A DNA stretch of 22,387 bases from a virus (lineage: Duplodnaviria > Heunggongvirae > Uroviricota > Caudoviricetes), in the IMG/VR virus record IMGVR_UViG_2698536657_000021, positions 1-22,387 of that record. The stretch is one strand, 5' to 3'. The notes under the pieces were generated by a model. It was given only the letters and a program-made list of their open reading frames with translations, was not told where the DNA came from and did no database searches. Below, piece by piece: positions 9,024-22,387 of the stretch; the stretch's first letter is position 1, and the number at the start of each line of letters is the position of its first letter. Position numbers and translations under genes: made by a program.

Positions 9024-9024
9024 G

Positions 9025-9303: not shown

Positions 9304-9373
9304 CGGTTGTCTCTGCTGGCGCAGCAGGTGCCAGTTGTTCAGGCTGGCGTGCGGCAATATTGTCTCTGATTTC

Positions 9374-9403: not shown

Positions 9404-9438
9404 CGAATAGTGTTCTATCCTACTCCGTGAGGTTTACC

Positions 9439-9696
9439 ATGCGTACAACCCAACAATTCAGCATTACATTAACTAACGAGATGGCTGACATGGTGCGCGC
9501 CCGTGTGGCTTCCGGCGCCTATGCTTCAGAAAGCGAGGTCATTCGTGAAGGGCTTCGCGCACTGAATGAGCGCGATAAAGCAATCGAAGCGTGGTTAACG
9601 CATTCAGCCGCCCCCTCTCTTGATTCTATCCGCGAAAACCCAAACAACGGACGCTCCATTTCACAGGTTCGCGTCGCGATTCGATCCGGGAAGTAA
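9439..9696 (+). CDS. parD: ParD-like ribbon-helix-helix antitoxin (type II TA)
   Basis: ATG at 9439 with SD GAGG and a 6-nt spacer. MRTTQQFSITLTNEMADMVRARVASGAYASESEVIREGLRAL fits the ParD/COG3609 RHH pattern. A 5-bp gap separates it from the downstream toxin gene. Confidence 0.75.
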   Translation: MRTTQQFSITLTNEMADMVRARVASGAYASESEVIREGLRALNERDKAIEAWLTHSAAPSLDSIRENPNNGRSISQVRVAIRSGK

Positions 9697-9701
9697 TCTG
9701 C

Positions 9702-10001
9702 ATGACATATGAAGTCATCATTACTCCTGAGGCCGAACAACAAATAATCAACCTGCACAGATATATAACGGAGAAAGCAGGGAACATCATTGCTGACAAT
9801 TATGCCAATGCGCTTCTTGATTATCTTGATGGGTTTTCTACATTCCCGCATCGGGGCAATAAACGCGATGATATTCGCCAGGGGATGCGGGTAACTCATT
9901 TCCGCCACAGAACGATTATTGCTTTTGCCGTTGATGGCAGAAAAGTCTTTATTGTCGGTATCTATCATGGTGGGCAAAGTTATGAAACCGATTTCTTATA
10001 A
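9702..10001 (+). CDS. parE: ParE/RelE-superfamily toxin (type II TA)
   Basis: Track ORF, 99 aa, directly after the RHH antitoxin. ParE-like layout: N-terminal helices (ITPEAEQQI...YITEKAGNIIADNYANALLD), C-terminal beta region (RVTHFRHRTIIAFAVDGRKVFIVGIYHGGQ). Confidence 0.75.
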   Translation: MTYEVIITPEAEQQIINLHRYITEKAGNIIADNYANALLDYLDGFSTFPHRGNKRDDIRQGMRVTHFRHRTIIAFAVDGRKVFIVGIYHGGQSYETDFL

Positions 10002-10082
10002 ACTTTTACCCACATCATTCCGGTGTTAGAATAAACCGTCTGCCCCTCTCTTACTGCGGATTCGTAGGCTATATAAATCAAA

Positions 10083-10116
10083 GATCCCGGCTCATGTTTG
10101 TGGCGGGATCTTTTTT
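10083..10116 (+). terminator. intrinsic terminator of the parDE unit
   Basis: 7-bp stem GATCCCG (10083-10089) / CGGGATC (10104-10110) followed by TTTTTT (10111-10116). Confidence 0.5.
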
Positions 10117-10203
10117 CGGCGATTTATCCCCAGCGGCAAATCGAATACACCACCAGCGCCACCGCCATTGCAATACCAACATTTGAGAAGGCCTCAGGCC
10201 AGC

Positions 10204-10734
10204 TCATTGGCGCACCTCCTTCGGCGGTTCTGGTAGCGGCATCCAGTGTGATGGTATCCACGACGCACCAGGTACTACCCACCCATCATTAGCGTCAGGA
10301 TGCCCCGGGATGTAAGTCGCCCATTTCATTCGCCAGTCACCTTTCCTGTCAAACTCCCTGGCAACAAGAACGGCTGTTTTGGTATCCGGCATTCGCTCAC
10401 TACAGCTTATCCAACCATCCGGAGTTACCGGCACTGGCTTGGCGGTATAAAGCGGTGTTATATCTGCCCGAAAATTACATGCTTTATGCAGCCGCACCCA
10501 CCGTTCGACTTCTGCTTTGTCAGAATACATACCAGTGAACGTGTTATATTCACGGTCAATTTGCGTGAATGTTACCTTCCACGCCACCGGCTCTGCTTCC
10601 AGAGATGCCAGTGCGATACGCAGGGAAGCCAGGATATTCCCCTGGTAATCATCAAGCCCGAAAGGAAGCTCATCACGAACGCTTTCATAATCGTTGATAG
10701 CCTGCTGCAGCCATTCTCTTGTGATAGTGCTCAT
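10204..10734 (-). CDS. DUF551-domain phage protein
   Basis: Track ORF, 176 aa. ATG at 10734 overlaps the upstream stop as ATGA. C-terminal ...WIPSHWMPLPEPPK is the DUF551 signature. Confidence 0.65.
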   Translation of the reverse strand: MSTITREWLQQAINDYESVRDELPFGLDDYQGNILASLRIALASLEAEPVAWKVTFTQIDREYNTFTGMYSDKAEVERWVRLHKACNFRADITPLYTAKPVPVTPDGWISCSERMPDTKTAVLVAREFDRKGDWRMKWATYIPGHPDANDGWVVPGASWIPSHWMPLPEPPKEVRQ

Positions 10735-11408
10735 GATTCCTCTCCTTTACCGGCTGCGGCGGCGATACGAAAAAGTTTAATGTCGCCGCTGTCTGAGTTC
10801 TGCTTACTCCAGATAAGTGACGTTTCTCGCCCGCGCTCGTTGATATGCATGAGATTTCTTTCGTCTGTAAAGCAGGCAGGGATGAAAGCTACAGGGAGTG
10901 GATAGAGGGCAACTGCATCATCACCCCATTGCTCAACTGCATATTTCTCATCGGTTGTGAACCTCGACATGAATGATGTGACGTTAGCATTCCTCATCCA
11001 TGCAACTGGCTTAACGTCCCGCGCCTGCAGCTCAGCAATCCGCTTCTCTGCTGCTTCCAGCTCAACACGCAGCTTCCCTACCGTTAGCGCAATATCCTCG
11101 TTCTCCTGGTCGCGGCGTTTGATGTATTGCTGGTTTCTTTCCCGTTCATCCAGCAGCGCCAGCACGGTAGCTGGATTGGCTGCGGCGATGAATTCAGCAT
11201 TGGCCTGCTGTTCCATTTGGAAATCTTCATCGAAACCGCTTTCAGGATGCGCTCCTTCAATTCTGCAAATGGGAATATATCCAGCAACTTCACGATGAAT
11301 TAGCGCATCATCACCATCAAATCGTCCCTCTCCATATTCGAGCGACCACTCGCCACACGTTGCTTTTTCTGCCTTAGCACGCAATGCCTGATAGTCAATC
11401 TTGCTCAC
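10731..11408 (-). CDS. Ead/Ea22-like protein, paralog 1
   Basis: Track ORF, 225 aa. GTG start with AGGAGGCAACCA context. Motif QQANAEFIAAANPATVLALLDERE followed by a coiled-coil segment. Confidence 0.7.
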   Translation of the reverse strand: MSKIDYQALRAKAEKATCGEWSLEYGEGRFDGDDALIHREVAGYIPICRIEGAHPESGFDEDFQMEQQANAEFIAAANPATVLALLDERERNQQYIKRRDQENEDIALTVGKLRVELEAAEKRIAELQARDVKPVAWMRNANVTSFMSRFTTDEKYAVEQWGDDAVALYPLPVAFIPACFTDERNLMHINERGRETSLIWSKQNSDSGDIKLFRIAAAAGKGEES

Positions 11409-11968
11409 TGGTTGCCTCCTTTGCGAAGCTCAGCGGCGAAGGCTACTGCGTGATCATGATGTTCAAGTGTGTATGCACACTCCGCAAACATCTCCACGCC
11501 CTGCGCTCGTACTTCAGCCAGGAAAGCATCGGTGGCAGGCATATTTCCTGTTGCCTTCATGGCCTCCAAAATAACCAGAACGCCATCTCTCCCAACCTCC
11601 TCGCAGATAACCTCGGTGTTGTCGCCAACAACATCGCAGAATGCCTGAACTGCTTTACGAGCAAGTGCATTCTCCGCCGCCAGCGCCACAAGATTAGCTT
11701 CCAGCTCTGCAATACGTTTGCTTTGGGCTTCCCGTTCATCCAGCAGTGCCTGTACTACTTCAGGGTTGAAAGCTGCAATAAATTCTGCGTTGTTCTCTGC
11801 ATTTTTCTGGTCATCAAAGCCAGGCCATTTGATAATGTCTCCGCAACGTTCATCCCCCGGCGTATGCACCGCATATGTATCAGTGCCCGGCGAAATGAAT
11901 GCGACCCATTCGCCCTGGGTTGCCAGTTTTGCTATCTCACGTAGCGTCTGATAATTAATTTTTCTCAC
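11405..11968 (-). CDS. Ead/Ea22-like protein, paralog 2
   Basis: GTG at 11968-11966 carries the identical AGGAGGCAACCAGTGAG initiation context seen for paralog 1; the track's longer ATG start at 11995 would add a 41-nt overlap with the upstream gene. Motif NAEFIAAFNPEVVQALLDEREAQ. Confidence 0.65.
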   Translation of the reverse strand: MRKINYQTLREIAKLATQGEWVAFISPGTDTYAVHTPGDERCGDIIKWPGFDDQKNAENNAEFIAAFNPEVVQALLDEREAQSKRIAELEANLVALAAENALARKAVQAFCDVVGDNTEVICEEVGRDGVLVILEAMKATGNMPATDAFLAEVRAQGVEMFAECAYTLEHHDHAVAFAAELRKGGNQ

Positions 11969-12260
11969 TGGTTGCCTCCTGGAAAATAACCGCATGTCCC
12001 AGTTTCTCCGCCAGTGCCAGTTCTGCCTTAGCGCCTGCCGACCGCTGCCAGCCTTTCAGCATGTAAACCGCATCCACACAACGAATCATCGCCATGCAAA
12101 TATCCATGTAATGTGGCTGAGTCAGCCCGTCCAGAAGTACTGCGGGATTTAATACGGTATGCCCTTCCTGTTTCAGTGCTTCTTCCGCCTTGTGAAACGC
12201 CTCACGGTTGAAATTTTCATATCCCGTCATCGGACCGGCGATATAAATTCTCACCCTCAC
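11955..12260 (-). CDS. DUF4406-like (nucleoside 2-deoxyribosyltransferase-like) phage protein
   Basis: Track ORF, 101 aa. GTG start overlaps the upstream stop as GTGA. N-terminal RIYIAGPMTG motif. Confidence 0.65.
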   Translation of the reverse strand: MRVRIYIAGPMTGYENFNREAFHKAEEALKQEGHTVLNPAVLLDGLTQPHYMDICMAMIRCVDAVYMLKGWQRSAGAKAELALAEKLGHAVIFQEATSEKN

Positions 12261-12538
12261 GCCTGAACCCTCCTGTCGAAATAAACGTAGTTATTCACTG
12301 CGCCCAACTTCATCCCAAACTTTTCGGCAATTTCCCGTCGGGGTACGCCACGCTGATGCAGTTGCCGCGCCAGCTCAATATCACGCTGTGAACATTTGGC
12401 TGACTGGTGATAATCACCCCGTAACATCATGCAGATACCCAGTTCCCGCGCTTTCGTCCTGACGGCAGCCCCACTACGGCCAATCAGACTGCCGATGCTT
12501 TCGACTGTCATCGTTCCCGCACACTGCCGGAGTATCAT
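12257..12538 (-). CDS. hypothetical small DNA-binding (HTH-like) protein
   Basis: First ATG (12538) in track ORF 12257..12622; the track GTG start would overlap the upstream gene by 52 nt. HTH-like segment RREIAEKFGMKLGAVNNYV. Confidence 0.4.
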   Translation of the reverse strand: MILRQCAGTMTVESIGSLIGRSGAAVRTKARELGICMMLRGDYHQSAKCSQRDIELARQLHQRGVPRREIAEKFGMKLGAVNNYVYFDRRVQA

Positions 12539-12570
12539 GATTTCCGCCCAGCGCCACTTCTTCCAGCCAC

Positions 12571-13287
12571 TCACCGCTTCTGCTCTCTGGTGGCGGTAAT
12601 ATCCCGGAGAATATCCCGGCACTTGTTAAGCTCCCGCAGAGCGGCACAGACTCGCTCCCACTTCTGCACATCACTTTTCGCCCGGCGCAGCTCGCGGTTA
12701 GCCACATGCAGCGATGGTAAAATCAGACCATCCGGATGTTTTCTGGTGAACGACGGCTGTGACTGCACTGTGACCGCCACACTTTCCGTTTTTATTTCTT
12801 CCTGTGTTTCTGCTTCCCGAACTGGTAACGCAACACCTGCTGGCTGAGGAAAGGCTTTACCATCGGTTTCCGCTACGGATGCAGCTTCCGGCTCTGCCGG
12901 TAAATCAGCGCCCGGTATGCAGTAACGAAATTTACCGCCCTGATTCACGCGAATCAGACGCCCTTTGCTGATTGCCATGGCCAGCGATGAATTCGCCCGG
13001 CGGGAGGTAATCCCGAACATCAGTGCCAGCTCATCCGCCGTTTGTGGGCCATGTTGTTCAATCGCCTCAGTCAGCATTTGCGCTGTCACTTTCGGTACCG
13101 GTGACACCGGTTCACTTTCACCAGCCTGAATCAGCCACCACATCGAACCCTTGTTATCCGCTTCACCGCGGCGCTTCAGTTTCCACAGTTCGTTGACCGC
13201 ATCTTCACGGCTGATTCCAAGGCGGGCCGCCACTACCTGTGAAGAGGCTCTTTTCAGTGCTTTCAGGGCGTCAAATACGGTTTCCAT
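12571..13287 (-). CDS. phage protein with two winged-helix-like segments (DUF1627-like, tentative)
   Basis: Track ORF, 238 aa, ATG at 13287. N-terminal [24 protein letters not shown] and a second wH-like [24 protein letters not shown]; basic C-terminus. Confidence 0.55.
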
Positions 13288-13308
13288 TAAAATTTCCTCC
13301 GGACAAAA

Positions 13309-14055
13309 TTACTTCACAACCCTCATATTGCTGACATTTGGACGCCAGCTATCCCAGTTAAACGTCACCCATCTACCACCGTTCATGGTCATGCGGTCCA
13401 TAATCCTCTCACCAAGAAGCGTACTCATTGCGGCATGATTCAGGTTTGTTAACATCCCGACACTGCACAGTGATGCTGTCCGGCGATCAATTATCTGGTG
13501 CAATACCACCTGCTCGTTTTTCGTCTCCCGCTGAACGCCTATTTCATCCAGGACCAGCAAATCAACCCCGCAAAGCTCCTGTAAAAATTTTTCCCCGGAT
13601 TTGCCGTTGTCGTAGCTGTCATGCAACACGCTCATGACGTCAGACACGGTGACGATAATCACGCTGCGCCCCTTCACCATCAGCCGGTTGCCCATCGCCG
13701 CTGCAAGGTGATTTTTCCCGGTGCCGGTTTTACCGCTGAACACAAAATTCGTGCACCCGGTCATCAGTTCGTCAGCTATGGATTTGGCCTGGCTCAGCGC
13801 GTATTTTTGCCCGTCGTTCTGCACCTGATAATTTGCAAACGAGCATTTGCTGTGCAGAGGCTGGATGCCCGAACGATTCAGGATTTTTTCCACCCGCAAC
13901 TGGCGATTCTGGCGGTTAATCTCCTCGCTGCGTTTTCGTCCTTCAGCAAGTTGCCATTCCCGCCACTCCTCCACCGTCCGGTACGGTGGAACCGCCCCCT
14001 GTGGTGCAAGTCTGCGAATACGTTCAAGAACCCCAACTGCCGCAATTTTTTTCAT
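13309..14055 (-). CDS. DnaC-like helicase loader (IstB-like AAA+ ATPase), replication protein P analog
   Basis: Track ORF, 248 aa. Walker A GKTGTGKNHLAAAMG, Walker B LLVLDEIG. SD AGGGGGTGA upstream. Immediately downstream of the O-like initiator. Confidence 0.85.
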   Translation of the reverse strand: MKKIAAVGVLERIRRLAPQGAVPPYRTVEEWREWQLAEGRKRSEEINRQNRQLRVEKILNRSGIQPLHSKCSFANYQVQNDGQKYALSQAKSIADELMTGCTNFVFSGKTGTGKNHLAAAMGNRLMVKGRSVIIVTVSDVMSVLHDSYDNGKSGEKFLQELCGVDLLVLDEIGVQRETKNEQVVLHQIIDRRTASLCSVGMLTNLNHAAMSTLLGERIMDRMTMNGGRWVTFNWDSWRPNVSNMRVVK

Positions 14056-14061
14056 GACACG

Positions 14062-15024
14062 TCACCCCCTGAATCCCGGCGGTATTTCAGTGTCCGGTTC
14101 AGAAATGTGATTCACGCAACGCTGCGCAGGCGAACGCCCCAGGCGGATAACCAGTTCATCCCATTTTTCCCGGAGTTTTGCCGGACTCATGATGTTTTTT
14201 ACCCAGAACGAATCCCGCTGGAGACGCCCAAACATTTCGCAAATTTGTCTGTGAGTTCTGCCATCCAGCATCCGCATTGTGCGAACGTCATTGGCCCATG
14301 CTGTCCAGTTGGGTTCTTTCGGTCTAGTGATCTCGCCATCATCGCTGGCCGCCTGCTCGTAAAGACTCACGATTCGTCCCCAGATCCACTGTGCGCACAC
14401 CAAATCTTCCTGACTTCCCCACTGGCGTTTTTTCGCACTGAACACAACCGCGTCAGGGTGTCGGGTTAAAAAATCCTGTTCAGCCGTCTGCGGGTCCGGT
14501 TGCGAAGCGTCCGGACAAGAAGATCTTTTATCTGACGGATCAGGTTTTAATACTGACGGATCGGGGTCAATCATCGCCCCCCTAATCGGCAGTTTTTTAT
14601 CAACAGTTGATCCATCAAAATTTGACGGGTCAACCGTTGAGGGGTCAATATTTGACGGGTCAACTGTTAACGGGTCATTTTTTGCCGGGCTAATTTTTCT
14701 TTTCGGTTTATATGACTCACGCGCCGCCGCCGCAGCTGCTTCGAGTTTTTCCACATTAAGCCGATAGATATTGCTTACATTACGCCCACCGACCTTACGC
14801 TCTTCCTTCGTCAGCCAGCCCTCTTTCGCCAGTTCTGCAATAGCCGATTTCACTGTGGATTCACTTCTTGCACCGATCTGACGCCGGATAGTTTCAATGG
14901 CAGGCCATGACACGCCCTCGTCATTGCTGTAGTCTGCAAGACGGGCCATAACCGCCACCCTGGATAAGATCATGCCGGTGAAGGCGCACCCTTCCCAGAC
15001 AAGACCATGAAGCTTGCTGCTCAT
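14062..15024 (-). CDS. replication initiator O-like protein (N-terminal wH DNA-binding domain, iteron-encoded DPS repeat linker)
   Basis: ATG at 15024 with SD GGGGG (the track start 15039 is GTG with no SD). The gene contains the iteron array; the protein segment LTVDPSNIDPSTVDPSNFDGSTVD is encoded by those iterons. Confidence 0.75.
   Translation of the reverse strand: MSSKLHGLVWEGCAFTGMILSRVAVMARLADYSNDEGVSWPAIETIRRQIGARSESTVKSAIAELAKEGWLTKEERKVGGRNVSNIYRLNVEKLEAAAAAARESYKPKRKISPAKNDPLTVDPSNIDPSTVDPSNFDGSTVDKKLPIRGAMIDPDPSVLKPDPSDKRSSCPDASQPDPQTAEQDFLTRHPDAVVFSAKKRQWGSQEDLVCAQWIWGRIVSLYEQAASDDGEITRPKEPNWTAWANDVRTMRMLDGRTHRQICEMFGRLQRDSFWVKNIMSPAKLREKWDELVIRLGRSPAQRCVNHISEPDTEIPPGFRG
14607..14696. 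repeat. replication origin iterons inside the O-like gene (six 15-bp units of imperfect palindrome TTGAC-N-GTCAA) followed by an AT-rich tract
   Basis: Units at 14607, 14622, 14637, 14652, 14667, 14682 (TTGATCCATCAAAAT, TTGACGGGTCAACCG, TTGAGGGGTCAATAT, TTGACGGGTCAACTG, TTAACGGGTCATTTT, TTGCCGGGCTAATTT), then TTTTCTTTTCGGTTTATATGA. Extra TGACGGATC copies at 14533 and 14564. Confidence 0.6.
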
Positions 15025-15046
15025 AAAACCCCCGAACACCGTGCTT

Positions 15047-15472
15047 TTAGTGCATCACCACAGCATTCCCTGCCGGGCCGCCGCGATTCATCTGGTCATA
15101 CAAAACAACCGCTGACGCAACAAAATCATCGACATCCTTCACCAGCCGATCCCTCCGTTCGACGATCTCACGGTAATATTCAGAACTGTGGCTGCGCATA
15201 CGGGCCACCAGCAAAGGCGGCATCGCCTTTTCGATCGCTGGTAACAACGCCTGAATTTTTTCAACTGCATCAGGGGTGTCTTTCTCTACCCAGCGGAAAA
15301 TTTTCTGGGTATTACGGGCCAGGGCTTCCGGATGGCTGTCGTCGTACAGTTCCGGGAACGTCATCCCCAGTTCGAAATAAGCCCGGGCTATTTCAGCTGC
15401 AGGTACTTTCTCACCGTCCGGATACGCCCAGGCATTCATCGCCATGCGGATGTGTTCATGCTTGATTTTCAT
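15047..15472 (-). CDS. YdaT-like protein (proposed CII-analog regulator / toxin family of Rac-type prophages)
   Basis: Track ORF, 141 aa. ATG overlaps the cro stop as ATGA. N-terminus MKIKHEHI matches the start of E. coli YdaT as I recall it. Sits between cro-like and O-like genes. Confidence 0.65.
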   Translation of the reverse strand: MKIKHEHIRMAMNAWAYPDGEKVPAAEIARAYFELGMTFPELYDDSHPEALARNTQKIFRWVEKDTPDAVEKIQALLPAIEKAMPPLLVARMRSHSSEYYREIVERRDRLVKDVDDFVASAVVLYDQMNRGGPAGNAVVMH

Positions 15473-15684
15473 GAATCATTCCTCATTTCGTGCGAGGTGT
15501 TATTCTTCTTTTTGTACAGCTCTGGGTTGTATTTCAATTCACCACCAGTAATTTCATCCAACTCAATTGCTCGAAGTTTTGGAATAACAGATTTCCACCG
15601 AACAACAGCCACGTGTGAAATTCCCAGAGCCTCAGCTACTAGCCGCTTTTTTTTGAAATAGCGTAGGACATCATCTTTAAACAT
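15469..15684 (-). CDS. Cro/YdaS-like HTH regulator, 71 aa
   Basis: ATG at 15684 with strong SD AGGGGGGA (the track start 15720 is TTG). HTH RLVAEALGISHVAVVRWKS. Divergent from the repressor gene. Confidence 0.7.
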   Translation of the reverse strand: MFKDDVLRYFKKKRLVAEALGISHVAVVRWKSVIPKLRAIELDEITGGELKYNPELYKKKNNTSHEMRNDS

Positions 15685-15711
15685 AAATCCCCCCTGTAAA
15701 ACCGAACCTAA

Positions 15712-15775
15712 AGGTAACAATAGTTACATGATAATGTCAACCATAGTGACATCCATTGGTAGTAACATTGGTTAC
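15712..15775. promoter_or_regulatory. immunity-region operator/promoter cluster between cro-like and the repressor gene
   Basis: Three palindromes: GTAAC-AATA-GTTAC (15714..15727), TGTCA-N7-TGACA (15735..15751), GTAAC-ATTG-GTTAC (15762..15775). Minus-strand promoter: -35 TTGACA (15740-15735) and -10 TACCTT/TTACCT (about 15717-15712), overlapped by the first operator. Confidence 0.5.
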
Positions 15776-16450
15776 ATGAACACTACCATTAGCGAACGCA
15801 TCCGAAAGCGTCGAAGAGACATAGGCCTAACCCAACAGCAGGTTGCAAAGGCTATCGGCGTCACCCGTGTATCCGTAACAAAGTGGGAAAATGGTTCAAC
15901 AAAACCGGACGGTGAGAATTTACATCTGCTGTCAAAACTGTTTTCCAAATCACCTGAATGGATTCTTTATGGGAAAGATATTCACGATAAAGTCGATGAT
16001 TTGCGATTGAATCAACTCCCCTACCTTAGTGACAACATCACCCGGTTGCCCGTTTTAACGTGGGAACAGGCTGGTTACTGGGATATGAGCTACCCAGTAA
16101 CCGAAATCCCTGGTATTAAGAATTGGGTTGATGTCATGACAAAAACATCTGAAAACTCTTTTTTATTGCGCGTTGAGGGGGATTCAATGACAAACTCTAA
16201 CGGTTTACCAACGATCCCCGACGGCTCCACGGTGTTGATCACTCCATGCTCTGGCAACATTGGGGAGATGGCGGGAAAGATTGTTCTAATCCAACTAGAA
16301 GGAATACCAACTGTAACACTGAAAAAAGTCGCAGTTGATGGCCCAAACATCTACCTACTGTCATTAAATCCGCTTTACAAGCCTATAGAACTCAATGGCC
16401 GCTACACCATTAAAGGTAAAGTCTCACAAATCCATCAATACTTAGATTGA
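15728..16450 (+). CDS. CI-type repressor (XRE-family HTH plus LexA-like S24 autopeptidase domain)
   Basis: Track ORF, 240 aa. HTH IGLTQQQVAKAIGVTRVSVTKWENG; S24 catalytic Ser in VEGDSMTN and Lys in VTLKKV. The ATG at 15776 (MNTTISERIRK...) is a plausible true start because operator copies fill 15714..15775. Confidence 0.8.
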   Translation: MIMSTIVTSIGSNIGYMNTTISERIRKRRRDIGLTQQQVAKAIGVTRVSVTKWENGSTKPDGENLHLLSKLFSKSPEWILYGKDIHDKVDDLRLNQLPYLSDNITRLPVLTWEQAGYWDMSYPVTEIPGIKNWVDVMTKTSENSFLLRVEGDSMTNSNGLPTIPDGSTVLITPCSGNIGEMAGKIVLIQLEGIPTVTLKKVAVDGPNIYLLSLNPLYKPIELNGRYTIKGKVSQIHQYLD

Positions 16451-16456
16451 CCAAAA

Positions 16457-16480
16457 GCCCGCATATATTGCGGTTTTTTC
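16457..16480 (+). terminator. intrinsic terminator after the repressor gene
   Basis: Stem CCGCA (16459-16463) / TGCGG (16469-16473) followed by TTTTTT (16474-16479). Confidence 0.5.
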
Positions 16481-16509
16481 ACACGCCTTCATGTAACTTA
16501 TGGAACCCA

Positions 16510-16538
16510 TTGACTCAACGGGTAACTTCTGTTACCTT
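16510..16538 (+). promoter_or_regulatory. putative early promoter of the ydfA-dicF-dicB operon with embedded repressor operator
   Basis: -35 TTGACT (16510-16515), 17-nt spacer, -10 TACCTT (16533-16538). The spacer/-10 contains GTAAC-TTCT-GTTAC (16522..16535), the same palindrome as in the cI-cro intergenic region. Confidence 0.45.
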
Positions 16539-16715
16539 CATTGCGTACCCACCCCGTCCCACAGAACGCCAGGCAATACCTAGAGTTACCCGGCAGTGGT
16601 CAGGGGTTAAGTAGCCAGCCCGAGGCGTATGAACATGACGGCGGGAACACTTTGTATAACAGCGCAGCAGGTTTTTAGTTCCGCTACCCCGGCGTTAAGG
16701 GGAAATGAGGTCAAC

Positions 16716-16868
16716 ATGGATACGCTCAATCTTGGCAACAACGAATCTCTGGTATGCGGCGTGTTTCCCAACCAGGACGGCACGTTTACCGCGATGACGT
16801 ATACCAGAAGCAAAACGTTTAAAACTGAAGCTGGCGCGCGTCGCTGGTTAGCAAGAAACTCTGACTAA
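16716..16868 (+). CDS. ydfA: YdfA-like small protein (DUF1391), 50 aa
   Basis: ATG at 16716 with SD GAGG and a 5-nt spacer. MDTLNLGNNESLVCGVFPNQDGTFTAMTYTRSKTFKTEAGARRWLARNSD resembles the Qin ydfA product. The upstream part of the track ORF lacks a usable SD. Confidence 0.65.
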   Translation: MDTLNLGNNESLVCGVFPNQDGTFTAMTYTRSKTFKTEAGARRWLARNSD

Positions 16869-16981
16869 TGAAGTCTGGTAGTTAAGGAATCCTCCACGGG
16901 GAGAACTGGTGCACACGCGCCGGACACAAGCAAGCATCCGGCATGCTCTTTAACAATCTGGATATCCATAACAGTAACAAT

Positions 16982-17473
16982 CTACAGATTGCCGTTCAGT
17001 TTTCTGGCCAACTCCTCAATAGATGGAGGCGATACATAATCCGGATTTTTATTCATAAGAAACTGATTTTCACAGTAGAGGCACCTGCTTTTATGAAAAA
17101 ACTCATATTCTCTAACCGGGAATGGTTGAAGTATCGATACTATCTTTTGTCCAAAACATTTTGGACAAAGATGCATGATTATGCTGCCGCCGTTCACGGT
17201 TACCTCCTTCGAGTACACAAAAGTTCCCGACTCAAGTTGGTTAAGGATATAACCTTCCGTCTGAGCCTCAAAGTTTTCAAATTCTGCAATTTTAGCTTTG
17301 AGAGAAGCATTTATTTCTTGATAAGTGCTCACCAGCTCAACGAGAGACACGCATTCGTGCTGAATAGATGCAAGCTTTGAGTTCAGTTCACCAATAGCCG
17401 CATTTACTTCAGCTTGAGTTTTTGCCTCGTTCATTAGTTTTGCAATCTGAGCGGTTTCACGAATAGCCGTCAT
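16982..17473 (-). CDS. hypothetical protein with N-terminal coiled coil and C-terminal CxxC...CxxC zinc-ribbon, AT-rich, reverse-oriented
   Basis: First ATG (17473) in track ORF 16982..17539 (track start is TTG). Low GC. MTAIRETAQIAKLMNEAKTQAEVNAAIGELNSKL... then CPKCFGQ and CLYCEN. Antisense to the expected ydfA-dicF-dicB transcript. No family recognised. Confidence 0.45.
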   Translation of the reverse strand: MTAIRETAQIAKLMNEAKTQAEVNAAIGELNSKLASIQHECVSLVELVSTYQEINASLKAKIAEFENFEAQTEGYILNQLESGTFVYSKEVTVNGGSIIMHLCPKCFGQKIVSILQPFPVREYEFFHKSRCLYCENQFLMNKNPDYVSPPSIEELARKLNGNL

Positions 17474-17486
17474 TGCTGCCGTTAAT

Positions 17487-17729
17487 TCAGCGATCACATT
17501 CAATACTCTTATTGTTGTTGGGGATATCCAGATTAACAAGATCCTTGTTGTTGGGGAATAACAGGTCCACCTCGCCTGACGTGGTTAAAAGCAGGCACAC
17601 AACACGAAAGCGCTCGGCGAAGTTAGTCTCTCTGTATATGTCGTCGTTAAATGTAATTCGATCGTGCGCTTCCGGTTGTGGCAATCCGCGAAATGGCGCG
17701 GCGGTAAGTATGGCTGGGGCTTCCTCCAT
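17487..17729 (-). CDS. hypothetical protein, 80 aa, possibly the first gene of a two-gene reverse cassette or the 5' part of a frameshifted gene
   Basis: Track ORF, ATG at 17729 with SD GGAG 5-8 nt upstream. Ends 13 nt before the ATG of the downstream ORF. The C-terminus is encoded over a 13-bp direct repeat TTGTTGTTGGGGA (17512-17524 and 17545-17557). Confidence 0.3.
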   Translation of the reverse strand: MEEAPAILTAAPFRGLPQPEAHDRITFNDDIYRETNFAERFRVVCLLLTTSGEVDLLFPNNKDLVNLDIPNNNKSIECDR

Positions 17730-17808
17730 TGCTCCAGAAAATGCACCGGGTTGTCAGGTTGACCATACACCTGAGTGACAACACCGCCACAACAACCTCT
17801 GTTATCAC

Positions 17809-17848
17809 TTTTCTGGTGATTCGGCGGAAATGGATATCCGCCATTTTT
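17809..17848 (+). ncRNA. dicF: DicF-like small RNA (cell-division inhibitor sRNA family), short variant
   Basis: Begins TTTCTGGTGA, as I recall the 5' seed of E. coli DicF; then hairpin GGCGGA-aatggata-TCCGCC (17823-17842) and ATTTTT. About 180 nt upstream of dicB, as in Qin. Exact ends uncertain. Confidence 0.55.
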
Positions 17849-18025
17849 AAAGTGTATTTTGTGATGCGGTGAATGCGGCTAAGCGCACGCGGAACAGTTA
17901 AAACAAGCGGTCTTTTACTGGCGTAACAGACATCAACTAACAATCCGGCGTTAATTGTTAACTGGTTAACGTCACCTGGAGGCACCAGGCACCACATCAC
18001 AAAATTCATTGTTGAGGACGCGATA

Positions 18026-18214
18026 ATGGAAACGTCACTACCAAACGTTAATACGTCTGAAAGGTGTTTTAATATTGGTATTCTGCTCAGTAACCGGGAG
18101 TTTACTGAGGACGCCATCAGGATGAGAAAATATGAGCCTTATCTTCTCAATGATAATTCCATACTCTCCAGAATTGCCCTTCTTGAACTTGGCATTTTCG
18201 GAGGGCAGCAGTGA
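18026..18214 (+). CDS. dicB: cell-division inhibitor DicB
   Basis: Track ORF, 62 aa. METSLPNVNTSERCFNIGILLSNREFTEDAIRMRK closely resembles E. coli DicB as I recall it. SD GAGGA upstream. Confidence 0.85.
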   Translation: METSLPNVNTSERCFNIGILLSNREFTEDAIRMRKYEPYLLNDNSILSRIALLELGIFGGQQ

Positions 18215-18399
18215 GTTCAGCGTTTGCACTGATGATGACGGTTTTTCTTATAACAGGTGAGCCACAGAATGTGATTACCGGAATTTATGCCAGTAAAGAA
18301 TCCTGCCTCCAGGCAAGAGACGAGCAAAAAATTTCTGGTGAATGCCTCCCGTTAAACAAAGTATCGCTGTACCTGAATAACGAAACACCGGCTGGATAA
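18211..18399 (+). CDS. ydfD: YdfD-like small lysis/membrane protein
   Basis: Track ORF, 62 aa. GTG start overlaps the dicB stop as GTGA. Hydrophobic N-terminus MSSAFALMMTVFLITGEP. Same position as ydfD after dicB in Qin. Confidence 0.65.
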   Translation: MSSAFALMMTVFLITGEPQNVITGIYASKESCLQARDEQKISGECLPLNKVSLYLNNETPAG

Positions 18400-18494
18400 C
18401 CCACCAGCCATATTAACGCCATACCAACGGATTAAAAATGCCAGCAATGGCAGGGATTCGTTCACCCTGAAATCTGTAATGAGGTTTAAACACA

Positions 18495-20966
18495 ATGAGT
18501 AAAATATTTATTTGCGCCGCCATTCCTGACGAACAGGCAATAAAAAACGAGGGCGCTGTTGCTGTGGCCACTGCCATTGAAGCCGGTGATGAACGTCGCG
18601 CCCGCGCAAAATTTCACTGGCAATTCCTTGAACATTATCCGGCTGCTCAGGACTGCGCTTATAAATTTCTTGTCTGTGAGGATAAACCCGGTACACACCG
18701 CCCAGCCCTCGACTCCTGGGATGCTGAATATATGCTGGAAAACCGCTGGGATGAGGAGTCTGCTTCCTTTGTCCCGGTTGAGACTGAATCAGATCCGATG
18801 AACGTCACTTTTGACAAGCTGTCCCCTGAAGTACAGAACGCTGTCATGGTTAAGTTCGACACATGTGAAAACATCACCGTTGATATGGTGATTAGCGCAC
18901 AGGAATTGTTGCAGGAAGACATGGCAACCTTCGACGGACATATCGTTGAAGCGTTGATGAAAATGCCAGAAGTTAACGCCATGTATCCGGAGATTAAACT
19001 GCATGCCATCGGGTGGGTTAAGCATAAATGTAAGCCTGGTGCCAAATGGCCAGAAATTCAGGCAGAGATGCGCATCTGGAAAAAACGTCGCGAAGGTGAA
19101 CGCAAGGAAACCGGAAAATATACGTCTGTTGTTGATCTCGCACGCACCAGAGTTAACCAGCACCTCACCGAAAACTCAGCAGCAAAAATCAACCCTGTCA
19201 CTACAGCCATTCGTCGCGAATACAGGCAGACATGGAAAACACTGGATAAAGAACTGGCCTGCGCCCTCTGGCCCGGGGATGTGGATGCAGGAAACATTGA
19301 CGGTACCATCCATCGCTGGGCTAAAAATGAGGTTATCGACAAGGATCGCGAAGACTGGAAGCGTATCTCAGCATCAATGCGCAAACAGCCTGATGCGCTT
19401 CGCTATGACCGTCAGACTATTTTCGGCCTTGTTCGTGAGCGCCCGATCGACATTTACAAAGATCCCGTTGCACTGAACAAATACATCAGCGAATACCTAA
19501 CGACAAAGGGCGTGTTTGAACATGAAGAAACAGACCAGAGCTCTGCTGATGCTATCCTGTCGTCAGCAGCACAAACTGATCCAGTGGAGACGGCGGAATC
19601 CAATTCTCAAAAAAATGAAATCCTGGTGGAAGCTGAACCATCTGTAGAGCGTGAAGGACCGTTTTATTTCGTCTTTACCGATAAGGACGGGGAAAAATAC
19701 GGCAGGGCAAACAAACTTTCTGGCCTGGACAAGGCGCTGGCTGCCGGTGGTACCGAAATCTCAAAAGAAGAATATTTTGCCCGAAAAAATGGCACATATA
19801 CGGGCTTACAGCAAAATACAGATACCGCAGAAGATTCAGAACAACCAGAGCCGGTAAAAGTTACCGCTGACGAAGTAAACAAAATTATGCAGGCAGCCAA
19901 TATCAGCCAGCCTGACACCGATAAATTGCTTGCTGCATCACGTGGTGAATTTGTTGAAGGGATTAGCGACCCGAATGATCCGAAATGGGTTAAGGGGATT
20001 GAAACCCGCGATTCTGTGAACCAGAACCAGCCCGAATCGGAACAAAACGACCAGAAAGCGGAACAAAACAGTCCAAATGCGTTACAAAACGAGCCAGAAA
20101 CGAAACTGCCTGAACCAGAAGTGCAACAAGAACCGGAAAAAGTCTGCACCGCCTGCGGTCAGACCGGCGACGGCAACTGTCCTGACTGTGGCGCGGTAAT
20201 GGGCGACGCAACATACCAGGAAACATTCGATGAAAAAAATCAGGCTGAAGTTCAGGAAGATGATTCGGAGGAAATGGAAGGCGCTGAACATCCGAACAAT
20301 GAGAATGCTGGTAACGATCAGCATCACACCAGCGATAGTGAAACTGGCGAGGCAGCAGAGCCCTTAATTGCGGAGAACGGTCATCACATTATCACATCCA
20401 CCAGCAGAGTGTGGATTCACCTGTCGGTCGACCTTGAAACGATGGGAACAAATCCTGATGCGCCAATCAACTCTATTGGCGGTAAATTTTTTGATCCGGC
20501 AACCGGAGAGATGGGGCCTGAATTCAGTAAAGCTATCGATCTGGAAACCTCCGGCGGAATCATCGACCGTAAAACAATAAAGTGGTGGGCGAAACGATCA
20601 CGCGAAGCACAATCCGCTATTTTTACCGATGAAATCTCGTTAGATGTTGCTCTCCGGCTATTCATAGAATTTATCGAAAAAAACTCCGGCGGGCGTTTTG
20701 TCCAGGTATGGGGAAATGGAGCCAACTTCGACAACGTAATTTTACGCCGTTCATATGAACGGCAGGGGATCCCCTGCCCGTGGCTTTACTACAACGATCG
20801 CGATGTACGCACAATCGTTGAACTGGGTAATGCCATTGGCTTTGATGTCAGAATGGCTATTCCATTCGAAGGCGTACCCCACAATGCGCTGGACGATGCC
20901 CGTCACCAGGCAAAACAAGTTTCAGCAATCTGGCAAAAACTGATCCCGAGTCAGGCTGATTTTTAA
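18495..20966 (+). CDS. YdfE-like large prophage protein with a C-terminal DnaQ-like (DEDDh) 3'-5' exonuclease motif set and a central zinc ribbon
   Basis: Track ORF, 823 aa, SD TGAGG upstream. C-terminal Exo I VDLETMG, Exo II WGNGANFD, Exo III HNALDDARHQ; central CTACGQTGDGNCPDCG; long acidic Q/E/N-rich linker. Follows dicB-ydfD as ydfE does in Qin. Confidence 0.75.
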   Translation: MSKIFICAAIPDEQAIKNEGAVAVATAIEAGDERRARAKFHWQFLEHYPAAQDCAYKFLVCEDKPGTHRPALDSWDAEYMLENRWDEESASFVPVETESDPMNVTFDKLSPEVQNAVMVKFDTCENITVDMVISAQELLQEDMATFDGHIVEALMKMPEVNAMYPEIKLHAIGWVKHKCKPGAKWPEIQAEMRIWKKRREGERKETGKYTSVVDLARTRVNQHLTENSAAKINPVTTAIRREYRQTWKTLDKELACALWPGDVDAGNIDGTIHRWAKNEVIDKDREDWKRISASMRKQPDALRYDRQTIFGLVRERPIDIYKDPVALNKYISEYLTTKGVFEHEETDQSSADAILSSAAQTDPVETAESNSQKNEILVEAEPSVEREGPFYFVFTDKDGEKYGRANKLSGLDKALAAGGTEISKEEYFARKNGTYTGLQQNTDTAEDSEQPEPVKVTADEVNKIMQAANISQPDTDKLLAASRGEFVEGISDPNDPKWVKGIETRDSVNQNQPESEQNDQKAEQNSPNALQNEPETKLPEPEVQQEPEKVCTACGQTGDGNCPDCGAVMGDATYQETFDEKNQAEVQEDDSEEMEGAEHPNNENAGNDQHHTSDSETGEAAEPLIAENGHHIITSTSRVWIHLSVDLETMGTNPDAPINSIGGKFFDPATGEMGPEFSKAIDLETSGGIIDRKTIKWWAKRSREAQSAIFTDEISLDVALRLFIEFIEKNSGGRFVQVWGNGANFDNVILRRSYERQGIPCPWLYYNDRDVRTIVELGNAIGFDVRMAIPFEGVPHNALDDARHQAKQVSAIWQKLIPSQADF

Positions 20967-21030
20967 TGTTCAACCCCGGTCGTCGTCCGCAAGCTATAGT
21001 GGCGGCGGCCATGATTAGCGAACAACGCTC

Positions 21031-21279
21031 ATGGCAAGACTTATTCTGCTCACTGAGTGGGCAAAAGAGGAATTCAGTGAACCGGTCCCTACTCCGGGCA
21101 CGTTAAGTAAATACGCTAAAGCCGGAATGATATTTCCTCTCCCCAAAAAAGTTGGAAGACACTGGCGAGTGGATCCTCGAGCTCGCTTTGTCGGAATGGT
21201 AAACAAGCCGGAAGTGATCGCCACAGATCACCCTGCTTTGAAGAGGATACTGGAAGATGGCGCGCCCACGAAAATATAA
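21031..21279 (+). CDS. xis: excisionase (Xis-like)
   Basis: Track ORF, 82 aa. LTEWAKEEF...GMIFPLPKKVGRHW parallels lambda Xis (LTLQEW...RIFPPPVKDGREY). Overlaps the int start by 23 nt, as in lambda. Confidence 0.75.
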   Translation: MARLILLTEWAKEEFSEPVPTPGTLSKYAKAGMIFPLPKKVGRHWRVDPRARFVGMVNKPEVIATDHPALKRILEDGAPTKI

Positions 21280-22387
21280 AACTGAAGTTCCGGGATTATC
21301 TCCGTATTTTGACAAAAGAAATAACAAAGTTTACTGGCGTTACAGGCATCCCATAACAGGAAAAAATCACGGGCTCGGCAGTATTGACCAGAAACAGGCA
21401 GAAGCTATTGCAGCAGAAGCGAACAGCCGTCTTGCCAGGCAACAAATGGAACAAATGCTCACTCTGCAGGAGAAAATTATTCGTGATACCGGTGGTTCAT
21501 CAACCGTTTCTGTTTTTCTGAATAGTTACCGAAAAATTCAACAGGAAAGATATGAAAACGGAGAGATCAAACTCAACACACTGAAACAGAAAGCATCCCC
21601 TCTCAGGGTATTTGATGAACGTTTTGGTACCAGACCATTAGATGCCATAACCGTAAAAGATGTGGTATCGGTGCTGGAAGATTACAAGGCAAAAGGACAT
21701 AACAGAATGGGACAAATTTTCAGGAAAGTACTGATTGATGTTTTCCGGGAGGCCCAGCAAACGGGCGATGTCTCGCCAGGCTTTAACCCTGCAGAATCGG
21801 CAAAAAAACCACAGGTACGGATATCACGGCAACGACTGACCTTTGATGAGTGGATGATGATTTATAATGCAGCGGAAAAGGATGGTTACTTTTTACAACG
21901 TGGTATGCTGCTGGCGCTGATGACAGGCCAGCGCCTTTCAGATATTTGCAAAATGAAATTTTCGGATATCAGGGATGGTTATCTTCATGTCGAACAGCAA
22001 AAAACAGGAACCCGGATTGCCATCCCTCTGGCTCTGCGTTGCGATAAATTAAATCTCACCCTGGATGATGTAGTGTCATCCTGTCGCGATTGCGTTCTTA
22101 GTCCGTGGTTATTGCACCACCATCATGCTAAAGGGACAGCTAAGCGCGGCGGGATGGTTAAGCCAGCAACGTTGACAGTTGCATTTAAAAAAGCCCGGGA
22201 TTCTGTGGATTACAACTGGCGCGCTAATGGCACTCCCCCCTCTTTCCATGAGCAGAGATCTTTATCAGAGCGATTGTTCAGGGAACAGGGAATTGATACC
22301 CAAATTTTGCTGGGTCATTCGAATCAAAAAATGACCGATATTTACAACGATGTACGCGGTAAAGAGTGGAAAAAACTGGTCATTTGA
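21257..22387 (+). CDS. int: tyrosine integrase (lambda Int family)
   Basis: Track ORF, 376 aa. N-terminus aligns with lambda Int (FDKRNNKVYWRYRHPITGKNHGLG versus YIRNNGYYCYRDPRTGKEFGLG). Catalytic-domain H-x-x-R (HEQRSL) and C-terminal Tyr region LLGHSNQKMTDIYNDV. Stop TGA is the last codon of the window. Confidence 0.9.
   Translation: MARPRKYKTEVPGLSPYFDKRNNKVYWRYRHPITGKNHGLGSIDQKQAEAIAAEANSRLARQQMEQMLTLQEKIIRDTGGSSTVSVFLNSYRKIQQERYENGEIKLNTLKQKASPLRVFDERFGTRPLDAITVKDVVSVLEDYKAKGHNRMGQIFRKVLIDVFREAQQTGDVSPGFNPAESAKKPQVRISRQRLTFDEWMMIYNAAEKDGYFLQRGMLLALMTGQRLSDICKMKFSDIRDGYLHVEQQKTGTRIAIPLALRCDKLNLTLDDVVSSCRDCVLSPWLLHHHHAKGTAKRGGMVKPATLTVAFKKARDSVDYNWRANGTPPSFHEQRSLSERLFREQGIDTQILLGHSNQKMTDIYNDVRGKEWKKLVI

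What the first reader, a model, noticed from the sequence alone, without database searches (positions are those of the whole stretch)
18495..20966. Large YdfE-like protein combining a DEDDh exonuclease motif set, a zinc ribbon and a long acidic linker
The C-terminal 180 residues carry all three DnaQ-like exonuclease motifs (DLETMG, WGNGANFD, HNALDDA), preceded by CTACGQTGDGNCPDCG and about 150 residues of acidic Q/E/N-rich low complexity. The gene occupies the position after dicB-ydfD held by a truncated ydfE in K-12 Qin. An intact copy with a predicted 3'-5' exonuclease next to xis/int could act in recombination or counter a host defence.
Basis: partly seen in the sequence, partly recalled or inferred. 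Interest (0 to 1): 0.4.

Follow-up and report, generated by a model that had tools for sequence, protein, structure and literature searches.

The report
RecE-like prophage protein with swapped exonuclease
This is an intact copy of a very common E. coli prophage gene: a RecE-like multi-domain protein whose usual 5'-3' nuclease is replaced by a T4 DexA-type 3'-5' exonuclease. It is already annotated as an exonuclease in public databases but has not been studied experimentally.

Summary
ORF 18495-20966 (+) encodes 823 aa. It has a complete DEDDh motif set (D646/E648, D746, H796/D801), a four-Cys ribbon (aa 551-566) and about 130 acidic, disordered residues around the ribbon.

The C-terminus is a firm Rv2179c/DexA-type 3'-5' exonuclease (Pfam E 9e-60). 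T4 DexA is the closest solved fold.

- The protein is a chimera. Residues 1-255 are K-12 YdfE (91% identical). Residues 262-628, including the zinc ribbon and acidic tether, are homologous to the non-catalytic part of Rac RecE. The DEDDh domain sits where RecE has its PD-(D/E)XK nuclease.
- It lies in the early-left operon (cI-like repressor ... dicB-ydfD-gene-xis-int) with no annealase. None was found in 80 related loci either.
- It is ubiquitous and already annotated. It matches in 4803 of 5426 complete E. coli genomes, RefSeq calls it '3'-5' exonuclease', and it belongs to PHROG 2082.

Most likely it is a phage DNA-end-processing nuclease that acts during lytic growth. That role is inferred. 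An HREX-type anti-T4 role and an RNA substrate are not excluded.

The same scaffold carries PD-(D/E)XK or probable Rad52-like modules in other phages. Interest is low to moderate.

The parts
18495..20966 (+). Complete gene, 823 aa plus stop. It is 100% identical at the DNA level to the gene for RefSeq WP_042965478.1 ('3'-5' exonuclease').
18495..18785 (+). Domain 1 (aa 1-97): small alpha/beta sandwich, YdfE-type head. dN/dS 0.10.
18804..19109 (+). Domain 2 (aa 104-205): helical, YdfE-type, with the conserved TFEGHIVEA...KWPEI motifs. dN/dS 0.12.
19227..19514 (+). Domain 3 (aa 245-340): helical. The alignment to Rac RecE (residues 278-594) begins here, at aa 262.
19656..19790 (+). Domain 4 (aa 388-432): small beta-hairpin/helix unit with the motifs ERxGPFYF...GRANK...EISxEEYxARKNG. 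It is absent from Rac RecE. dN/dS 0.07.
19905..20015 (+). Conserved segment aa 471-507 containing RGEFVEGISDPNDPKW. It is shared almost unchanged with RecE 453-490.
20016..20138 (+). Acidic, Q/N-rich disordered tether 1 (aa 508-548), net charge -8.
   Evidence: pLDDT below 50; composition and dN/dS 0.26
20145..20192 (+). Four-Cys zinc ribbon CxxC-x8-CxxC (C551, C554, C563, C566), shared with RecE. dN/dS 0.09.
   Evidence: Pfam zinc-ribbon models match only below threshold. AF2 pLDDT is 55-76.
20220..20411 (+). Acidic disordered tether 2 (aa 576-639), net charge -16, dN/dS 0.74.
20412..20963 (+). DEDDh 3'-5' exonuclease domain (aa 640-823) of the Rv2179c/DexA type. ExoI D646/E648 (nt 20430-20447), ExoII D746 (nt 20709-20732), ExoIII H796/D801 (nt 20880-20900).
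   Evidence: Pfam E 9e-60. AF2 pLDDT 92-98. Foldseek best match is T4 DexA 8KEN at E 4e-11. Residue conservation.
15728..16450 (+). Context: cI-like repressor at the head of the leftward early region.
   Evidence: phrog_4 E 5e-46
18026..18399 (+). Context: dicB and the ydfD homologue, immediately upstream in the same orientation.
   Evidence: present upstream in 79 of 80 related loci
21031..22387 (+). Context: excisionase and integrase immediately downstream. There is no recT or other annealase gene between them and the exonuclease gene.

Best explanation
The gene encodes a modular phage nuclease of the RecE lineage in which the catalytic module has been exchanged.

Architecture:
- A four-domain N-terminal scaffold. 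Domains 1-2 are YdfE-type; the RecE-related stretch starts in domain 3 (aa 262), and domain 4 has no counterpart in Rac RecE.
- A conserved RGEFVEGISDPNDPKW segment.
- A long acidic disordered tether that carries a four-Cys zinc ribbon.
- A C-terminal T4-DexA/Rv2179c-type DEDDh domain at the end of that tether.

Proposed mechanism: the DEDDh domain removes nucleotides from 3' ends by two-metal-ion hydrolysis, using D646, E648, D746, H796 and D801.

Proposed role: the gene sits in the repressor-controlled early-left operon (cI-like repressor ... dicB-ydfD-gene-xis-int). It should therefore be made after induction or infection. It most likely processes DNA ends during phage replication and recombination, as a 3'-end-trimming counterpart of RecE that works without a phage annealase.

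Shown here: domain identities, intact catalytic residues, homology to YdfE and RecE, operon position, absence of an annealase, purifying selection on the folded parts.

Inferred: DNA rather than RNA as substrate, timing of expression, and the role in end processing or recombination.
For: - Enzyme identity. Pfam PF16473 E 9e-60. All five DEDDh residues are present and conserved in 61-63 of 68 aligned family members. The AF2 model has pLDDT 92-98, and T4 DexA (8KEN/8KEL) is the closest solved fold at E 4e-11, followed by RNase T and Orn/REXO2.
- RecE relationship. BLASTP aligns aa 262-628 to RecE 278-594 at E 1e-62, with near-identity over aa 473-628 including the zinc ribbon. There is no match to the RecE nuclease domain. 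NCBIfam exoVIII matches only aa 453-628.
- Same operon slot as recE in Rac-type phages: kil-ydaE-racC-recE-recT-...-xis-int, against dicB-ydfD-gene-xis-int here.
- Modularity. The same scaffolds occur with DEDDh, with PD-(D/E)XK (P0140, P0152), and with a probable Rad52-like annealase (P0137 and relatives). That last module gives Pfam Rad52_Rad22 E 0.004 and hhalign against RAD52 E 0.008 over 115 columns. Its gene lies between Gam-like and Mu-Gam-like genes.
- A 58%-identical standalone DEDDh gene lies between Erf-SSB and Abc2 in phage mEpX2.
- The gene is functional, not a relic. All 80 IMG/VR relatives have intact ORFs. dN/dS is 0.07-0.19 in folded domains against 0.37-0.93 in linkers. It is present in plaque-forming phages such as Tritos, HannyBb and mEp460.
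Against: - No biochemical or genetic data exist for any full-length member in the literature I could search.
- The founding Pfam member, Rv2179c, is an exoribonuclease, so an RNA substrate cannot be excluded.
- 3'-5' polarity yields 5' overhangs, which are not the canonical substrate for phage annealase-driven recombination.
- No annealase, SSB, Gam or Abc2 homologue lies in the window or in 80 related loci. That fits a solitary role that may not be recombination at all.
- Expression only after induction is inferred from lambdoid operon layout. It was not measured.
Confidence: 0.5

Rival explanations
1. HREX-type prophage defence. The DexA-like domain degrades the modified (5hmC-type) DNA of superinfecting T-even phages and so protects the lysogen. 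This was reported for the standalone E. coli DexA homologue EcD.
For: PMC12153337 reports that plasmid-borne EcD digests T4 DNA, spares unmodified dsDNA and protects E. coli from T4. The window domain belongs to the same DexA-like family. Like EcD, it lacks the DexA tetramer residue: D90 aligns to V718.
Against: - The two residues the paper ties to 5hmC recognition are not conserved. W152 aligns to Y766 and D169 to A780, although the alignment is only 23% identical.
- EcD is a different, standalone protein. Its primers show it starts MIDTET and ends TIPETYD.
- The gene lies in the early-left operon downstream of a cI-like repressor, so it is probably silent in lysogens.
- PADLOC gave no hit.
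- The RecE-type scaffold is unexplained by this model.
Confidence: 0.15
2. RNA-directed enzyme. As in M. tuberculosis Rv2179c, the domain is a 3'-5' exoribonuclease. It would trim or degrade host or phage RNAs, or short oligonucleotides, during lytic growth. Degrading signalling nucleotides would make it a possible anti-defence function.
For: The best Pfam family is named for an exoribonuclease. RNase T and Orn/REXO2 are the next-closest solved folds after DexA. RefSeq names many copies '3'-5' exoribonuclease'.
Against: - The closest solved relative, T4 DexA, is a DNase (PMC12153337).
- The scaffold is shared with a dsDNA exonuclease (RecE) and with a probable annealase.
- The standalone homologue sits inside a DNA-recombination module.
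- There is no evidence for any RNA partner.
Confidence: 0.15
3. Host-DNA scavenging, the other known DexA role. The nuclease degrades nicked or broken host DNA from 3' ends to feed phage DNA synthesis, with no role in recombination.
For: Host-DNA scavenging is one of the two established roles of T4 DexA (PMC12153337). The enzyme is solitary, with no annealase nearby.
Against: Temperate lambdoid phages are not known to degrade the host chromosome (general knowledge). The conserved RecE-type scaffold and the operon slot point to end processing rather than bulk degradation.
Confidence: 0.1
4. Decaying remnant of a recE-like gene with no current function.
For: K-12 Qin carries only an IS2-truncated fragment. 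A 527-aa internal-deletion derivative also exists (P0122).
Against: All 80 related viral loci have intact ORFs of 811-823 aa, 76 of them with every motif pattern intact. dN/dS is 0.07-0.19 in folded domains. At least 80% of the gene is present in 3523 complete E. coli genomes.
Confidence: 0.02

Closest known systems
RecE (exonuclease VIII) of the Rac prophage, E. coli K-12
   Same: - Same slot in the early-left operon, upstream of xis/int.
- Homologous over aa 262-628 against RecE 278-594: helical domain 3, the RGEFVEGISDPNDPKW segment, the CxxC-x8-CxxC ribbon and the acidic tether, about 75% identical over the last 150 residues.
- Large multi-domain protein with the nuclease at the C-terminus.
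- The N-terminal region has no known function in either protein (PMC11611040).
   Different: - The catalytic domain is a DEDDh 3'-5' exonuclease, not the PD-(D/E)XK 5'-3' dsDNA exonuclease.
- The first 255 residues are YdfE-type, not the PF06630 RecE N-terminus.
- Domain 4 (aa 388-432) is absent from RecE.
- No recT follows the gene.
- The protein scores 280 bits against the 1269-bit cutoff of the RecE equivalog model.
T4 DexA (exonuclease A; PDB 8KEL/8KEN) and its standalone homologues, including E. coli 'EcD'/HREX and the mEpX2 gp31-type proteins
   Same: Same DEDDh subfamily. DexA is the closest solved fold (E 4e-11). All catalytic residues align. Both are phage-encoded.
   Different: - Only 23% identical to DexA.
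- It lacks DexA's extra loops.
- The 5hmC-recognition residues W152 and D169 align to Y766 and A780.
- It is fused to a 640-residue scaffold rather than standing alone.
Rv2179c of M. tuberculosis (founding member of Pfam PF16473)
   Same: Full-length match to the family profile (2-177 of 177, E 9e-60).
   Different: Rv2179c is a standalone bacterial exoribonuclease. It did not appear among the top 50 structural matches. Here the context is a phage DNA-metabolism operon.
YdfE of the K-12 Qin cryptic prophage
   Same: aa 1-255 are 91% identical, and the position after dicB-ydfD is the same.
   Different: K-12 ydfE is a pseudogene cut by IS2 after residue 255. It lacks everything from domain 3 onward.

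Membership tests
DEDDh (DnaQ-like) exonucleases, Rv2179c/DexA subfamily (Pfam PF16473) | Profile match above the curated gathering score | tested here: met
   201.8 bits against a cutoff of 27, E 9e-60, profile positions 2-177 of 177
DEDDh (DnaQ-like) exonucleases, Rv2179c/DexA subfamily (Pfam PF16473) | Exo I D-x-E, Exo II D and Exo III H-x4-D catalytic residues | tested here: met
   D646/E648, D746 and H796/D801 are present and align with invariant columns, including T4 DexA H186/D191
DEDDh (DnaQ-like) exonucleases, Rv2179c/DexA subfamily (Pfam PF16473) | RNase H-like alpha/beta fold | tested here: met
   AF2 pLDDT 92-98 for aa 640-817. Foldseek matches DexA at E 4e-11 and RNase T at E 2e-8. 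This rests on a predicted model only.
DEDDh (DnaQ-like) exonucleases, Rv2179c/DexA subfamily (Pfam PF16473) | Metal-dependent 3'-5' exonuclease activity | not testable with these tools
   Needs an enzyme assay
RecE / exodeoxyribonuclease VIII (NCBIfam NF007259 equivalog) | Whole-protein score above the equivalog cutoff | tested here: not met
   280.4 bits against a cutoff of 1269; only aa 453-628 match
RecE / exodeoxyribonuclease VIII (NCBIfam NF007259 equivalog) | C-terminal PD-(D/E)XK 5'-3' nuclease domain | tested here: not met
   No alignment to RecE 600-866. No DUF3799/PDDEXK Pfam hit. A DEDDh domain occupies that position.
RecE / exodeoxyribonuclease VIII (NCBIfam NF007259 equivalog) | PF06630 Exonuc_VIII N-terminal domain | tested here: not met
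   No hit. Other family members (P0124, P0126) do have it.
RecE / exodeoxyribonuclease VIII (NCBIfam NF007259 equivalog) | Non-catalytic middle region with zinc ribbon and acidic tether | tested here: met
   aa 262-628 against RecE 278-594, E 1e-62
RecE / exodeoxyribonuclease VIII (NCBIfam NF007259 equivalog) | Adjacent RecT annealase partner | tested here: not met
   xis follows directly. No RecT hit in any of 80 related loci.
HREX / EcD-type anti-T4 exonuclease (PMC12153337) | DexA-like domain that lacks the tetramer residue D90 | tested here: met
   D90 aligns to V718
HREX / EcD-type anti-T4 exonuclease (PMC12153337) | Conserved 5hmC-recognition residues (DexA W152 and D169) | tested here: inconclusive
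   W152 aligns to Y766 (aromatic kept) and D169 to A780 (lost). The alignment is 23% identical, with gaps nearby.
HREX / EcD-type anti-T4 exonuclease (PMC12153337) | Selective digestion of 5hmC DNA and protection from T4 | not testable with these tools
   Needs plaque and nuclease assays
YdfE (Qin prophage) | Sequence identity and synteny with K-12 ydfE | tested here: met
   91% identity over aa 1-255, downstream of dicB-ydfD

The most novel reading that the evidence does not exclude
The YdfE/RecE-type N-terminal region, whose function in RecE has stayed unknown for decades, may be a general delivery scaffold of lambdoid phages onto which alternative DNA-end modules are plugged. The modules seen here are a PD-(D/E)XK 5'-3' nuclease, a DexA-type 3'-5' nuclease, a probable Rad52-like annealase and a short 'GLCANP' tail. 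On this reading the DEDDh version is a single-protein, annealase-independent end-processing system. Its acidic tether and zinc ribbon would engage a host partner such as RecBCD, SSB or the replisome.
Probability: 0.25. Interest if true: 0.55.

Novelty: new variant of a known kind. Interest (0 to 1): 0.3.

Why it matters
The gene occurs in most sequenced E. coli strains, often in several prophages per genome, including Stx-phage-bearing EHEC strains. No full-length member has been characterised.

It is a natural domain-swap experiment on RecE. The same scaffold, zinc ribbon and acidic tether carry a nuclease of opposite polarity, and there is no RecT. Working out what it does would therefore bear on the long-unexplained role of RecE's N-terminal two-thirds, which enhances linear-linear recombineering. 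It could also yield a new recombineering or cloning reagent.

It also gives a concrete test of whether the recently proposed DexA-type 'HREX' defence extends to the commonest DexA homologue in E. coli.

As a discovery it is modest. The domain content is already in RefSeq, PHROGs and Pfam.

Tried and rejected
- PDB sequence search with the whole protein gave nothing. With the C-terminal domain alone it gave only weak DexA hits (E 0.001).
- PADLOC defence models gave no hit.
- I first assumed the window equals NZ_AP045170.1 3113916-3136302. That was wrong. Only 16547-22387 is collinear (99.8%), and no complete E. coli genome covers 80% or more of the window in one place. I therefore annotated the window's own ORFs.
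- I looked for an annealase or end-protection partner (RecT, Erf, lambda Bet/Exo/Gam, SSB, Abc2, Rad52-like module). None was found in the window's large ORFs or in 80 related loci. The downstream flank is usually short because the prophage ends after int.
- A profile of the Rad52-like module searched against PDB sequences gave no hit. Only weak Pfam and hhalign support exists.
- I tried to retrieve the EcD sequence. Only its primers are in the supplement, so identity to the window domain could not be computed.
- Two literature searches were wasted because 'RecE' matched 'receptor' in word-start mode.
- Rfam finds no DicF upstream of dicB. Alignment shows a shortened variant there.
- The 'dead remnant' hypothesis was rejected on conservation grounds.
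Full report
**1. The observation**

The window has an ATG-initiated ORF at 18495-20966 on the + strand that encodes 823 residues.

| Motif | Residues |
|---|---|
| DLETMG | 646-651 |
| WGNGANFD | 739-746 |
| HNALDDA | 796-802 |
| CTACGQTGDGNCPDCG | 551-566 |

Residues 508-639 contain the ribbon. The two stretches flanking it are 24-28% Asp+Glu, rich in Gln/Asn, and carry a net charge of about -26. dicB and a ydfD homologue lie immediately upstream. xis and int lie immediately downstream.

**2. The C-terminal domain**

Pfam PF16473 (Rv2179c-like 3'-5' exoribonuclease) matches aa 642-813 over the whole profile at E 9e-60. I aligned the domain with T4 DexA, with the standalone homologue of phage mEpX2, and with 50%-cluster representatives. 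The five DEDDh residues (D646, E648, D746, H796, D801) fall in invariant or near-invariant columns.

An AlphaFold2 model of aa 440-823 gives pLDDT 92-98 for aa 640-817. Its closest solved structures are T4 DexA (8KEN/8KEL, E 4e-11), then RNase T and Orn/REXO2. The enzymatic assignment, a metal-dependent 3'-5' exonuclease, is therefore strong. Substrate (DNA or RNA) cannot be read from the sequence.

**3. The rest of the protein: a chimera of YdfE and RecE**

Residues 1-255 are 91% identical to the K-12 Qin ydfE pseudogene, which IS2 cuts at that point. Residues 262-628 align with residues 278-594 of Rac RecE at E 1e-62. From residue 473 onward the two are about 75% identical. That stretch includes the RGEFVEGISDPNDPKW segment, the CxxC-x8-CxxC ribbon and the acidic tether.

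The RecE nuclease domain (about 600-866) has no counterpart here. The DEDDh domain occupies its place. Consistent with this:
- The RecE equivalog model matches only aa 453-628 and scores far below its cutoff.
- The RecE N-terminal Pfam domain PF06630 is absent.

**4. Fold and constraint of the scaffold**

AlphaFold2 on aa 1-470, with an 18-sequence alignment, gives four confident units separated by low-confidence linkers:
- aa 1-97, alpha/beta
- aa 104-205, helical
- aa 245-340, helical; the RecE alignment begins within this unit, at aa 262
- aa 388-432, hairpins plus helices

I computed pairwise dN/dS against the 88%-identical gene of phage Tritos. Every folded unit, the RGEFVEG segment and the zinc ribbon give 0.07-0.19. 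The linkers give 0.37-0.93, except acidic tether 1, which gives 0.26. This independently supports the domain map and shows the whole architecture is under selection.

**5. Genomic context**

The window is a lambdoid prophage early region. A cI-like repressor (15728-16450, +) and a cII-like gene (15047-15472, -) are followed on the + strand by a ydfA-like gene, dicB, ydfD, the exonuclease gene, xis and int. The rightward genes on the - strand are an O-like initiator, a DnaC-like loader, Ea22-like unknowns, a DUF968/HNH protein, Q and a methyltransferase.

In Rac-type phages the same slot holds recE followed by recT. Here nothing lies between the gene and xis. No annealase was found among the window's large ORFs.

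In 80 IMG/VR loci that carry close relatives:
- The ORF is intact in all 80 (811-823 aa).
- dicB and ydfD are upstream in 79.
- tblastn finds no RecT, Erf, lambda Bet/Exo/Gam, SSB, Abc2, RecE nuclease or Rad52-like module.

A 58%-identical standalone DEDDh gene sits between Erf-SSB and Abc2 in phage mEpX2. The domain therefore does occur inside a classical phage recombination module.

**6. Modularity across the family**

A search of 1.84 billion cluster representatives returned 10,419 relatives. Inspection of the long ones shows that both scaffold types, with a YdfE-type or a RecE-type head, occur with several different C-terminal modules:

| C-terminal module | Examples |
|---|---|
| DEDDh domain | this protein, P0121, P0123, P0124, P0126, P0133 |
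| PD-(D/E)XK / DUF3799 nuclease | P0140, P0152 |
| About 190-residue core (plus a helical tail) with Rad52 hallmark motifs | P0137, P0144, P0149, P0176, P0208 |
| Short 'GLCANP' tail | P0130, P0147, P0181 |

The evidence that the third module is Rad52-like is weak. Pfam Rad52_Rad22 gives E 0.004, below threshold. hhalign against human RAD52 gives E 0.008 over 115 ordered columns. A profile search of PDB sequences found nothing.

In locus L092 the scaffold-annealase fusion occupies the same operon slot. It lies between a lambda-Gam-like and a Mu-Gam-like gene, upstream of xis/int. Together these facts tie the scaffold to DNA-end transactions. This is the main support for a recombination or end-processing role.

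**7. What is already known**

The gene's DNA is 100% identical to that encoding RefSeq WP_042965478.1, which is annotated '3'-5' exonuclease'. It gives full-length matches to PHROG 2082, 'exonuclease'. Its database entries carry precomputed Pfam tags PF27430 and PF27432, which are not in my local Pfam copy, alongside PF16473.

The gene matches in 4803 of 5426 complete E. coli genomes. At least 80% of it is present in 3523 of them, with a median of two places per genome. It is also in isolated phages: Tritos, HannyBb, PhiR42_1, mEp460 and the PPompW phages of EHEC.

I found no paper on the full-length protein. The nearest experimental work is PMC12153337 (NAR 2025). It solved the T4 DexA structure and reported that a standalone E. 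coli homologue, EcD, digests 5hmC T4 DNA and protects cells, a mechanism the authors call 'HREX'.

EcD is a different protein. Its primers show it starts MIDTET and ends TIPETYD. By the paper's own criteria the window domain fits only partly. It lacks the tetramer residue (D90 aligns to V718). The proposed 5hmC readers W152 and D169 align to Y766 and A780.

**8. Verdict**

The best-supported reading is a RecE-lineage phage nuclease whose catalytic module has been swapped for a DexA-type 3'-5' exonuclease. It would be expressed from the early-left operon and act on DNA 3' ends during lytic development, without a phage annealase. My confidence is about 0.9 for the enzymology and about 0.45 for the biological role.

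Three rivals remain open: HREX-type defence, an RNA substrate, and host-DNA scavenging. A dead remnant is excluded.

The sequence family is already catalogued, so this is not a discovery of a new element. As a system it is an uncharacterised variant of a known kind. Its value is as a handle on the unexplained RecE scaffold. Interest: 0.3.

Noticed in passing
window 17806-17850 (+), about 175 nt upstream of dicB: The DicF sRNA locus is a shortened variant. It keeps the 5' TTTCTGGTGA and a GGCGG...CCGCC terminator stem with a T-run. About 19 nt of the K-12/Tritos DicF interior are missing (the segment beginning ACTCCGTGACTGCTCTG). Rfam detects no DicF here. From memory, the lost segment is the part reported to pair with ftsZ mRNA, so target range may differ.
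   Followed up: partly
L092 4989-7337 (+); proteins P0137, P0144, P0149, P0176, P0208: The same YdfE/RecE-type scaffold is fused to a module of about 190 residues that carries Rad52 hallmark motifs (FGP.G..WG.E; GATPY; KKSLTDA.KKALS.LGFSADVWLGLYD). PHROGs labels these proteins 'exonuclease', probably by propagation from the shared N-terminus. In L092 the gene lies between a lambda-Gam-like and a Mu-Gam-like gene. Evidence for the Rad52 fold is weak (Pfam E 0.004; hhalign E 0.008).
   Followed up: partly
proteins P0130, P0147, P0150, P0181 (cluster representatives): A fourth alternative C-terminus on the same scaffold: a tail of about 50 residues with L(T/D)W(K)Q..TIAA..GLCANPA. It matches no Pfam family and matches only the C-terminus of PHROG 26058 (function unknown).
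   Followed up: no
protein P0122 (527 aa cluster representative): An internal-deletion derivative that joins residue ~366 directly to the middle of the DEDDh domain and so loses the ExoI D-x-E motif. Presumably it is an inactivated copy circulating in some genomes.
   Followed up: no
window 1-16546 compared with 16547-22387: Only the last 5.8 kb (ydfA-like gene to int) is collinear, at 99.8%, with the prophage at ompW in strain JNEC-KY174. The rest matches in mosaic pieces at 77-95%. No complete E. coli genome in the collection covers 80% or more of the window in one place.
   Followed up: partly
window 3205-3417 (-) and 17841-18058 (+): There is a strong Rfam STnc100 sRNA match (131 bits) at 3205-3417. 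A weak second match (33 bits, below the 47-bit gathering score, E 3.5e-5) runs into the start of dicB.
   Followed up: no
window 16982-17539 (-): A 185-aa ORF lies antisense to the early-left operon, between the ydfA-like gene and dicB. It matches PHROG 1244 (function unknown, E 1e-57) and contains CPKC...CLYC cysteine pairs. RefSeq annotates it as hypothetical in the related prophage.
   Followed up: no
window 4844-5092 (-): A cluster of three tRNA genes lies in the late-regulatory region downstream of Q, as is typical of Stx-type lambdoid prophages.
   Followed up: no
database entries for the 823-aa protein (P0001-P0120): All carry precomputed Pfam tags PF27430.1 and PF27432.1, which are newer than the local Pfam-A copy. 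Pfam curators have apparently already defined families for the non-catalytic parts. Their names could not be read here.
   Followed up: no
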